Below, piece by piece: positions 17,269-17,320 of a stretch of DNA of 64,000 bases. Source of the DNA: Malacoraja senta (Eukaryota); assembly GCA_038087875.1 (NCBI GenBank), contig CM075990.1, positions 3,164,001 through 3,228,000 of the forward strand, written 5' to 3'. The position numbers were made by a program, and so were the translations under genes. Position 1 is the first letter of the stretch; the number at the start of each line of letters is the position of its first letter. The notes under the pieces are model-generated. The model made no database searches. It had not been told where the DNA came from and saw nothing but the letters and a program-made list of their open reading frames with translations.

Positions 17269-17320
17269 GGGGTCAAGGAAAGAGCGTTCACGTCGCGGCC
17301 CTGTTTCCACCAATCTTTCC
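17269..17320 (+). ncRNA. Minimal CPEB3-like HDV ribozyme fold, fully paired
   Basis: P1 GGGGTC/GGCCCT; P2 GGAAAGA/TCTTTCC; P3 GCG/CGC; L3 TTCACGT; G17303 for P1.1; J4/2 CCAA. Confidence 0.85.

What the first reader, a model, noticed from the sequence alone, without database searches (positions are those of the whole stretch)
17269..17320. Fully paired 52-nt CPEB3-like ribozyme with a 6-bp P1 and no P4
Seen: GGGGTC AA GGAAAGA GCG TTCACGT CGC GGCCCT G TTTCCA CCAA TCTTTCC. Every stem pairs, the G1.U wobble is present, and the putative catalytic C is 17310. Established, from memory: the P3/L3 block GCGTTCACGTCGC is the same as in the mammalian CPEB3 ribozyme. Inference: this is the best candidate here for an active ribozyme, and a mobile CPEB3-like core bears on the idea that the CPEB3 ribozyme came from a retroposon. 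The 6-bp P1 is shorter than the canonical 7 bp.
Basis: partly seen in the sequence, partly recalled or inferred. Interest (0 to 1): 0.85.

Follow-up and report, generated by a model that had tools for sequence, protein, structure and literature searches.

The report
Minimal CPEB3-like ribozyme heads Vingi retroposon
A 52-base motif predicted to be a self-cutting RNA forms the exact front end of a short jumping element with hundreds of copies in this genome, and its full-length relatives on likely Vingi-type retrotransposons are so close to the mammalian CPEB3 ribozyme that the latter likely began as such a transposon end.

Summary
The sequence and pairing are as described. The motif is not a one-off: it is the first 52 nt of a ~165-nt non-autonomous retroposon (17269-17433) with a target-site duplication and an (AAG)n tail; 272 genomic copies carry positions 2-52 unchanged and similarity stops at the predicted cleavage site. 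Its last 71 nt come from the ORF end and 3' UTR of a LINE family in the same genome. Sister LINE families begin with full-length (7-bp P1, P4) versions that pass the Rfam CPEB3 cut-off and covary; published 5' ends of Vingi LINEs (gharial, crocodile, sea urchin, lancelet) show the same motif. Best reading: a P4-less, 6-bp-P1 HDV-like ribozyme that likely cuts the element out of read-through transcripts; cleavage is untested (about 70%). The 52-mer itself is not an RF00622 member (29.8 < 35 bits). This copy is not special: a local inverted duplication would lock it in a 106-bp hairpin. The larger point is that the mammalian CPEB3 ribozyme falls inside Vingi 5'-ribozyme diversity (one family 57-58 of 63 non-loop positions identical), so it likely derives from a Vingi insertion; my searches found no held paper saying so.

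The parts
17269..17320 (+). Predicted minimal HDV-like ribozyme (6-bp P1, 2-nt J1/2, 7-bp P2, P3/L3, 1-bp P1.1, no P4, J4/2 CCAA); predicted cleavage between 17268 and 17269; predicted catalytic C17310
   Evidence: positions 2-52 exact in 272 genomic copies
17269..17433 (+). Full-length ~165-nt non-autonomous retroposon (bipartite LINE derivative, SINE-like, no tRNA head)
   Evidence: 932 candidates in first look; copies end-to-end 89-94% identical; no tRNA-type hit in Rfam E-value scan
17321..17362 (+). Middle segment, likely remnant of the parent LINE 5' UTR; length varies between copies
   Evidence: ACCAC(C) after P2 is shared with sister families B, C, D; parent 5' end not recovered
17363..17433 (+). 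LINE-derived 3' part: last 13 codons and stop (TAA 17403-05) of the parent ORF, short 3' UTR, (AAG)n tail 17424-17433
   Evidence: 79-90% identical to 16 of 30 LINE 3' ends; best of 2909 stop-anchored peptides in the window against a profile of 72 homologue C-termini
17258..17268 (+). Target-site duplication, 5' copy (abuts G1)
   Evidence: 10 of 11 identical to 17434-17444
17434..17444 (+). Target-site duplication, 3' copy
17082..17187 (-). Inverted duplicate of 17215-17320, including a second ribozyme copy (17082-17133) with a C-A mismatch in P1; locus-specific rearrangement
   Evidence: 99% complementary arms; replaces the interior of a Helitron-type element with short microhomology at both ends
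16948..17087 (+). 5' part of an unrelated high-copy Helitron-type non-autonomous element (label inferred from recalled end features)
   Evidence: 1523 candidates; 14 other copies lack the inverted insert
17187..17214 (+). 3' end of the Helitron-type element (hairpin 17187-17201, CTAG 17211-14)

Best explanation
The motif is the 5' end of a ~165-nt non-autonomous retroposon likely derived by internal deletion from a likely Vingi-clade LINE, and it is predicted to be a P4-less HDV-like ribozyme that would cut between 17268 and 17269 to free the element's RNA from host read-through transcripts. Shown: the element's 5' boundary is G1, it has target-site duplications and a LINE-derived 3' end, and sister LINEs begin with covarying full-length versions of the same fold. 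Inferred: general-acid cleavage by C17310 leaves a 5'-OH at G1; the LINE protein then recognises the shared 3' end and inserts the RNA by target-primed reverse transcription, so every complete new copy regains a ribozyme that needs only transcription from upstream; P4 and one P1 pair were lost in the non-autonomous lineage. At this locus the later inverted duplication would likely silence the copy in transcripts that come from upstream. The mammalian CPEB3 ribozyme is likely a domesticated 5' end of the same LINE clade.
For: 5' boundary: 29 of 30 best copies and 39 of 40 copies chosen on positions 2-52 have G at +1, with no conservation upstream (only a T bias at -1, 19 of 40); contig loose ends in two other runs pile at 17267-70. 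TSD in 28 of 31 tailed copies, 22 of the 28 abutting G1; control 3 of 144. 3' end shared with LINE family P. Sister families A, B, D/K, G, H, I carry the fold at their 5' ends; 17 of 21 representatives parse, with P1.1 TT/GT versus TC/GG covarying; 93% of cells paired and 18 double changes, 0 of 500 shuffles as high. Geometry precedent: drz-Spur-3, an active ribozyme, reads 6-bp P1, 2-nt J1/2, 7-bp P2, J4/2 CCAA from the primers in PMC5984629 (by eye); P4-less natural ribozymes are active. The 51-mer stays exact across body subfamilies (8 of 40 keep an older, parent-like 3' end). Vingi assignment: 3.14-kb single ORF, APE + RT, no RNase H hit; 5' ends of Vingi-2_Gav, Vingi-4_Crp, Vingi-2_SPur, Vingi-1_BF printed in the supplement of PMC5786205 match; Vingi is one of four clades reported to make bipartite derivatives.
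Against: No cleavage data. PolyA RNA reads of one holder organism (X20, 211 reads laid) show 93 reads running uncleaved through the site and no pile-up of molecule starts; the library type and read orientation make this weak. The parent family's own 5' end was not found (longest copy starts at residue 250), so loss of P4 in the short element rather than in its parent is inferred. The linker can pair with the P2 5' strand (-5.4 versus -7.4 kcal/mol) and dominates the pseudoknot-free fold of the 52-mer. One-pair P1.1, two G.U pairs in a 6-bp P1 and no P4 together may make it slow or dead. Copy samples were chosen for intact 5' ends. Vingi membership was not tested on a tree with named references.
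Confidence: 0.7

Rival explanations
1. The motif is a degenerate relic: the short element inherited the LINE 5' end, lost P4 and a P1 pair, no longer cleaves, and is kept because the sequence is an internal promoter or a cis signal for the LINE protein; the 5' end is a transcription start.
For: The L1Tc ribozyme region is also an internal promoter (PMC8256844 passage); uncleaved reads and no start pile-up in X20; competing P2 pairing; a fixed start site would also give a sharp 5' boundary.
Against: All helices remain fully paired after a deletion that removed one base from each P1 strand, and G1.U, L3, P1.1 and the J4/2 C are kept in 272 identical copies; geometry matches an active ribozyme.
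Confidence: 0.22
2. The likeness to CPEB3 is convergence on a constrained active site, and says nothing on CPEB3's origin.
For: [quoted passage not shown]
Against: Helix sequences that are free to vary among sister families (P2, P3, P4 differ in H and I) are nevertheless shared: family C majority matches the Rfam consensus at 57-58 of 63 positions outside L4 with the P4 stem 14 of 14 (by eye); Vingi-2_Gav matches 35 of 37 positions from G2 to P1.1 and the last 14 of 14 (by eye); P2 of family G is identical.
Confidence: 0.15
3. The direction is reversed: an old vertebrate CPEB3 intronic ribozyme was captured by these retroposons.
For: None found beyond the sequence likeness.
Against: The motif heads Vingi elements of sea urchin and lancelet and an unnamed metagenome LINE homologue (61.7 bits), and the CPEB3 ribozyme is reported only from mammals (PMC8233481).
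Confidence: 0.03
4. The partner LINE is an RTE-clade element (my first reading), making this one more RTE 5' ribozyme.
For: (AAG)n tail, ~11-nt TSD, single APE-RT ORF and bipartite derivatives are also RTE traits (partly recalled).
Against: RT motif reads LPQGSVLAP, whereas RTE reads RQGC (recalled); the 5' ends match named Vingi elements.
Confidence: 0.05

Closest known systems
Mammalian CPEB3 ribozyme (Rfam RF00622)
   Same: 19-nt identical block across P3/L3 and P1 3' strand, G1.U, one-pair P1.1 with U.U, C-N-A-A J4/2; full-length sister families score up to 64 bits
   Different: No P4, 6-bp P1, different P2 sequence, 29.8 bits (< 35), multi-copy mobile element rather than a single conserved intron site
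Minimal HDV-like ribozymes (drz-Mtgn-1, theta ribozymes; PMC10879173)
   Same: P4 replaced by a short linker; ~50 nt
   Different: Those are nearly all in gut phages, often behind tRNAs, with none found in human, mouse or protist genomes; this one heads a vertebrate retroposon and has a CPEB3-type core
drz-Spur-3 (sea urchin; sequence from primers in PMC5984629)
   Same: 6-bp P1, 2-nt J1/2, 7-bp P2, J4/2 CCAA
   Different: Has P4 and a two-pair P1.1; unrelated helix sequences
L1Tc/NARTc and ingi/RIME (trypanosome LINE plus non-autonomous partner with 5' HDV-like ribozyme)
   Same: LINE and internally deleted partner both start with an HDV-like ribozyme; Ingi is reported as the clade closest to Vingi
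   Different: Vertebrate host; ribozyme reduced in the non-autonomous partner; CPEB3-like sequence
Vingi LINEs and their bipartite derivatives (Vingi-1_EE derivatives, SINE2-1_AMi; PMC5786205)
   Same: ~3.1-kb single-ORF LINE; same 5' motif; internal-deletion derivatives
   Different: That paper does not list Vingi among ribozyme-bearing clades and does not mention CPEB3; SINE2-1_AMi has a tRNA head and broken L3, this element has no head

Membership tests
HDV-like ribozyme | Nested double pseudoknot P1, P2, P3, P1.1 | tested here: met
   All helices pair; covariation across families 93% paired, 0 of 500 shuffles
HDV-like ribozyme | G1.U/G1-C at cleavage site, L3 U...C...GU, C first in J4/2 followed by N-A-A | tested here: met
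   G at +1 in 39 of 40 copies
HDV-like ribozyme | Mg2+-dependent self-cleavage needing the J4/2 cytosine | not testable with these tools
   RNA reads uninformative
RF00622 CPEB3 ribozyme | Score at or above gathering 35 bits | tested here: not met
   29.8 bits; 39 of 51 other genomic matches do pass
RF00622 CPEB3 ribozyme | 7-bp P1 and P4 hairpin | tested here: not met
   6-bp P1, 5-nt linker
RF00622 CPEB3 ribozyme | Single copy in intron 2 of mammalian CPEB3 | tested here: not met
   272 dispersed identical copies with TSDs
Minimal HDV-like / theta ribozymes | No P4 | tested here: met
Minimal HDV-like / theta ribozymes | Phage genome, tRNA directly upstream (theta) | tested here: not met
   Eukaryotic repeat; unconserved upstream flanks; no tRNA hit
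Bipartite non-autonomous LINE derivative | 3' end taken from an autonomous LINE | tested here: met
   71 nt 79-90% identical to family P ends; ORF C-terminus remnant
Bipartite non-autonomous LINE derivative | 5' end taken from the same LINE | tested here: inconclusive
   Related to 5' ends of sister families A and B; family P 5' end not recovered
Bipartite non-autonomous LINE derivative | TSD and microsatellite tail, no small-RNA head | tested here: met
   TSD 28 of 31, control 3 of 144
Vingi clade (partner LINEs) | Single ORF with APE and RT, C-terminal zinc-finger-like motif, no RNase H (features recalled; Kojima 2011 not held) | tested here: met
Vingi clade (partner LINEs) | 5' end like named Vingi elements | tested here: met
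   by-eye comparison with four Vingi 5' ends in PMC5786205 supplement
Vingi clade (partner LINEs) | RT groups with named Vingi references | not tested
   No named Vingi protein available; tree holds only unnamed or generically named homologues from Anolis, lancelet, sea urchin, teleost, insects

The most novel reading that the evidence does not exclude
The mammalian CPEB3 ribozyme is the domesticated 5' end of a Vingi retrotransposon, and living Vingi families in non-mammals supply the missing outgroup; within that clade a non-autonomous element in this genome evolved an active 52-nt, P4-less, 6-bp-P1 ribozyme, a natural minimal HDV-like ribozyme in a vertebrate genome.
Probability: 0.6. Interest if true: 0.85.

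Novelty: new variant of a known kind. Interest (0 to 1): 0.72.

Why it matters
[quoted passage not shown] The LINE families found through this motif give such outgroups, name a concrete donor clade (the human genome holds a Vingi fossil, X12_LINE), and make the origin testable by sequence and by cleavage assays. Separately, minimal P4-less HDV-like ribozymes were reported as about 99% phage-confined (PMC10879173); an active one in a vertebrate retroposon would extend them to eukaryotes, show which parts a mobile element can shed, and place hundreds of potential cleavage sites in one genome. 5' ribozymes on non-LTR elements as such are known, so the kind of system is not new.

Tried and rejected
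Rfam gathering scan of the window: only U6. miRNA-family hits over 17090-17310 are the inverted duplication, not miRNAs. An HMM of the last 70 residues of 87 homologues did not detect the ORF remnant (best E 0.61); a stop-anchored profile did. Search for a P4-bearing version of the exact SINE ribozyme: 2 hits, both tandem duplications of the P2 strand. Fuzzy core search in 65 family-P loci: nothing. I first guessed family D was the parent because its P4 loop resembles the SINE linker; D belongs to family K, not P. RTE/RTEX assignment dropped. One search used a structure mis-set by one column; one search is the corrected count, with the G1 and G2 pairs of P1 left out because of the length difference. 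Sequencing runs: no RNA holder listed; one raw polyA run laid, no start pile-up. CPEB loci: two CPEB2/3/4-type genes found, paralogue not identified; no ribozyme in 100 kb around one or 30 kb upstream of the other's RRM exons: inconclusive. Protein atlas gave only generic RT names. No host exon found among 35 of 47 long window frames scanned. Earlier scan findings: none. The contig look-up for protein homologues was closed. Not held: Ruminski 2011, Webb 2009, Webb and Luptak 2011, Kojima 2011. PMC13708176 (2026 review; Vingi 41, HDV 6, CPEB3 0 mentions) seen only as a search listing and abstract start.

Full report
Observation. P1 pairs 6 of 6 with two G.U pairs, P2 7 of 7, P3 3 of 3; P1.1 is one C-G beside a U.U; a 5-nt linker replaces P4; J4/2 is CCAA from C17310. 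A descriptor scan of both strands of the window found only this site, and a scored parser reached its score in 0 of 496 random slices. Rfam's CPEB3 model scores it 29.8 bits, below the cut-off of 35. The 13-nt core occurs twice in the window, exact, on opposite strands.

Local anatomy. The second copy lies in a 106-nt inverted duplication (17082-17187 / 17215-17320). A high-copy element with Helitron-type ends (label from recalled features; 1523 candidates) sits at about 16948-17214; in 14 other copies its interior is ~330 nt of its own sequence, while here it is replaced by the inverted flank, with short microhomology at both joints. That explains why the duplicate stops exactly at the end of P2. 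It is a local accident (an assembly artefact was not excluded). In a transcript from upstream the ribozyme is predicted to be paired to its antisense copy with probability 0.999.

The motif is the head of a retroposon. A genome search gave 932 candidates, 40 scored. 29 of the 30 fetched copies start with the same G1 and run ~165 nt to an (AAG)n tail. Positions 2-52 occur exactly 272 times, the reversed control 0 times. In 40 plus-strand copies taken from the first 100 listed, +1 is G in 39 and nothing upstream is conserved beyond a T bias at -1; 28 of the 31 with a recognisable tail have a target-site duplication (9 without tail dropped; mismatched-pair control 3 of 144), 22 of 28 abutting G1. 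The window copy has an 11-nt duplication with one mismatch. Both samples favour 5'-intact copies. Contigs of two other runs, from two coded organisms, also break off at 17267-17270. Only 7 copies match a pattern with a 7-nt P1 3' strand and all 7 keep the 6-nt 5' strand, so the 6-bp P1 is the family state. The host is likely a cartilaginous fish (recalled from its tRNA-derived SINE; not tested).

Parent and sister LINEs. The last 71 nt encode a stop-anchored peptide that is the best of 2909 in the window against 72 homologue C-termini and are 79-90% identical to the ends of 16 of 30 LINE loci, family P (28 of 30 in a second, overlapping set). All P copies seen are 5'-truncated, so its own ribozyme is unknown. 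A search with RF00622 gave 51 matches among 59 scored, 39 above cut-off, up to 64 bits. Family A is a 3.14-kb LINE, 8 copies 96-98% identical, with a full ribozyme at its 5' end and one APE + RT frame. Families B, D/K, G, H and I also start with the fold; family C ribozymes sit back to back with truncated LINE bodies in 4 of 5 loci. 17 of 21 representatives parse into the pseudoknot with changed helix sequences, and P1.1 covaries; on 9 aligned rows 93% of cells pair, with 18 double changes, 0 of 500 shuffles as high (relatedness inflates this control; slid controls 38-47% paired). P groups with A and B (95/93). An unnamed metagenome homologue also has a 61.7-bit CPEB3 match ~100 nt before its ORF (two contigs, same sequence, catalytic C lost in that copy; third contig internal).

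Clade. I first read the partner as RTE. The supplement of PMC5786205 (passages seen) prints the 5' ends of Vingi-2_Gav, Vingi-4_Crp, Vingi-2_SPur and Vingi-1_BF, which carry this motif; Vingi-2_Gav is 3128 nt; the RT motif here is PQGS. [quoted passage not shown] A tree with named references was not possible.

Mechanism. Shown: boundary at G1, TSD, LINE 3' end, conserved covarying fold in the clade. From established work (PMC6765202, PMC3774820, PMC8256844; passages): HDV-like ribozymes at LINE 5' ends release the element from co-transcripts. Inferred: C17310-catalysed cleavage frees the RNA, and the LINE protein inserts it through the shared 3' end. For activity: drz-Spur-3 has the same P1, J1/2, P2 and J4/2 geometry (primers in PMC5984629, passages, read by eye); P4-less ribozymes cleave (theta preprint section 5 and passages, PMC10879173 and PMC6326823 passages); a spacer between P1 and P2 is needed and short ones were slow in another ribozyme (PMC4908430 passages); the 51-mer is unchanged across body subfamilies. 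Against: competing pairing of the linker, one-pair P1.1 without P4, and 93 read-through reads with no start pile-up among 211 polyA reads of another organism (weak). I put in vitro cleavage at about 70%; a promoter or cis-signal role is the main rival and may coexist.

CPEB3. The 52-mer shares a 19-nt block with the Rfam consensus. The full-length relatives share far more: the majority of five family C copies matches 57-58 of 63 positions outside L4, with the P4 stem 14 of 14 (by eye); Vingi-2_Gav matches 35 of 37 from G2 through P1.1 and the last 14 of 14 (by eye). Active sites converge, but P2 and P4 sequences vary freely among sister families here, so shared helix sequence points to descent. 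Invertebrate Vingi elements carry the motif, which sets the direction from transposon to intron. [quoted passage not shown] Human Vingi traces exist (X12_LINE; PMC5753468 passages). No remnant next to the mammalian ribozyme could be checked.

Novelty. Searches: HDV-like + ribozyme + SINE + shark, 1 paper on R2; RTEX + ribozyme, 0; CPEB3 ribozyme + RTE + retrotransposon + origin, 2; CPEB3 ribozyme + mammals + evolution + retrotranspos, 9; Vingi + ribozyme, 6, of which 3 concern transposons; Vingi/CPEB3/HDV, 40 of 113 listed, none with both Vingi and CPEB3. Of the three, PMC5786205 was read in passages, PMC13708176 and PMC4494074 only as listings. Key primary papers and most subscription journals are not held, and bioRxiv supplements are closed, so a prior statement cannot be excluded. 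Verdict: real; a new variant (minimal, eukaryotic, mobile) of a known kind (5' HDV-like ribozyme of non-LTR elements); interest 0.72, mostly for the testable Vingi origin of the CPEB3 ribozyme.

Noticed in passing
L035, L038, L039, L042, L043, L046, L048, L049, L052, L054, L055, L056: 12 of the 30 fetched RF00622 loci are 5' inversions: ~95-125 nt starting at or near G1 joined back to back to a 5'-truncated body of the LINE (twin-priming-like), in four families. The constant length suggests a preferred second priming site.
   Followed up: partly
L159:1277-1357 and L160:1266-1422 (oriented): Family A copies with 4-6 tandem repeats of the first ~26 nt of the ribozyme at the 5' junction, as from repeated template jumps.
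   Followed up: no
L077/L080 3' ends versus PMC5786205 supplement: The 'unknown' 3' end of alligator SINE2-1_AMi resembles the 3' end of family B here, so it is probably a Vingi 3' end; its Vingi part has a P4 stem identical to CPEB3's and a 6-nt P1 3' strand.
   Followed up: no
L061:281-3103: Family A copy with a 940-codon open frame, copies 96-98% identical, so recently active; this frame stops about 60 residues before the homologues' C-terminal zinc-finger-like motif.
   Followed up: partly
L166:1928-2005 (-), family G: Another LINE family whose ribozyme parses with a 6-bp P1 and a P2 identical to the CPEB3 consensus.
   Followed up: partly
window 17225-17470, run X20: About twice as many first mates on the + strand as on the - strand over the ribozyme; if the library is stranded the usual way, sense RNA is depleted, as cleavage or selection would give. 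Strandedness unknown.
   Followed up: no
window 43564-43670 (-): Full-length U6 snRNA copy, 110 bits.
   Followed up: no
window ~23550-28380: About 4.8 kb of strongly G/T-skewed simple repeat giving long open frames on both strands.
   Followed up: no
window 8178-11302 (-), 36362-36907 (-), 55728-56261 (-), 17478 onward (+): Other retroelement remnants: RT fragments, zf-RVT, a GIY-YIG (Penelope-like) piece and a CR1-like fragment just downstream of the element (recalled likeness).
   Followed up: no
L255, L256 (G000:C2259): Two intronless, broken CPEB1-like copies in inverted orientation 70 kb apart.
   Followed up: no
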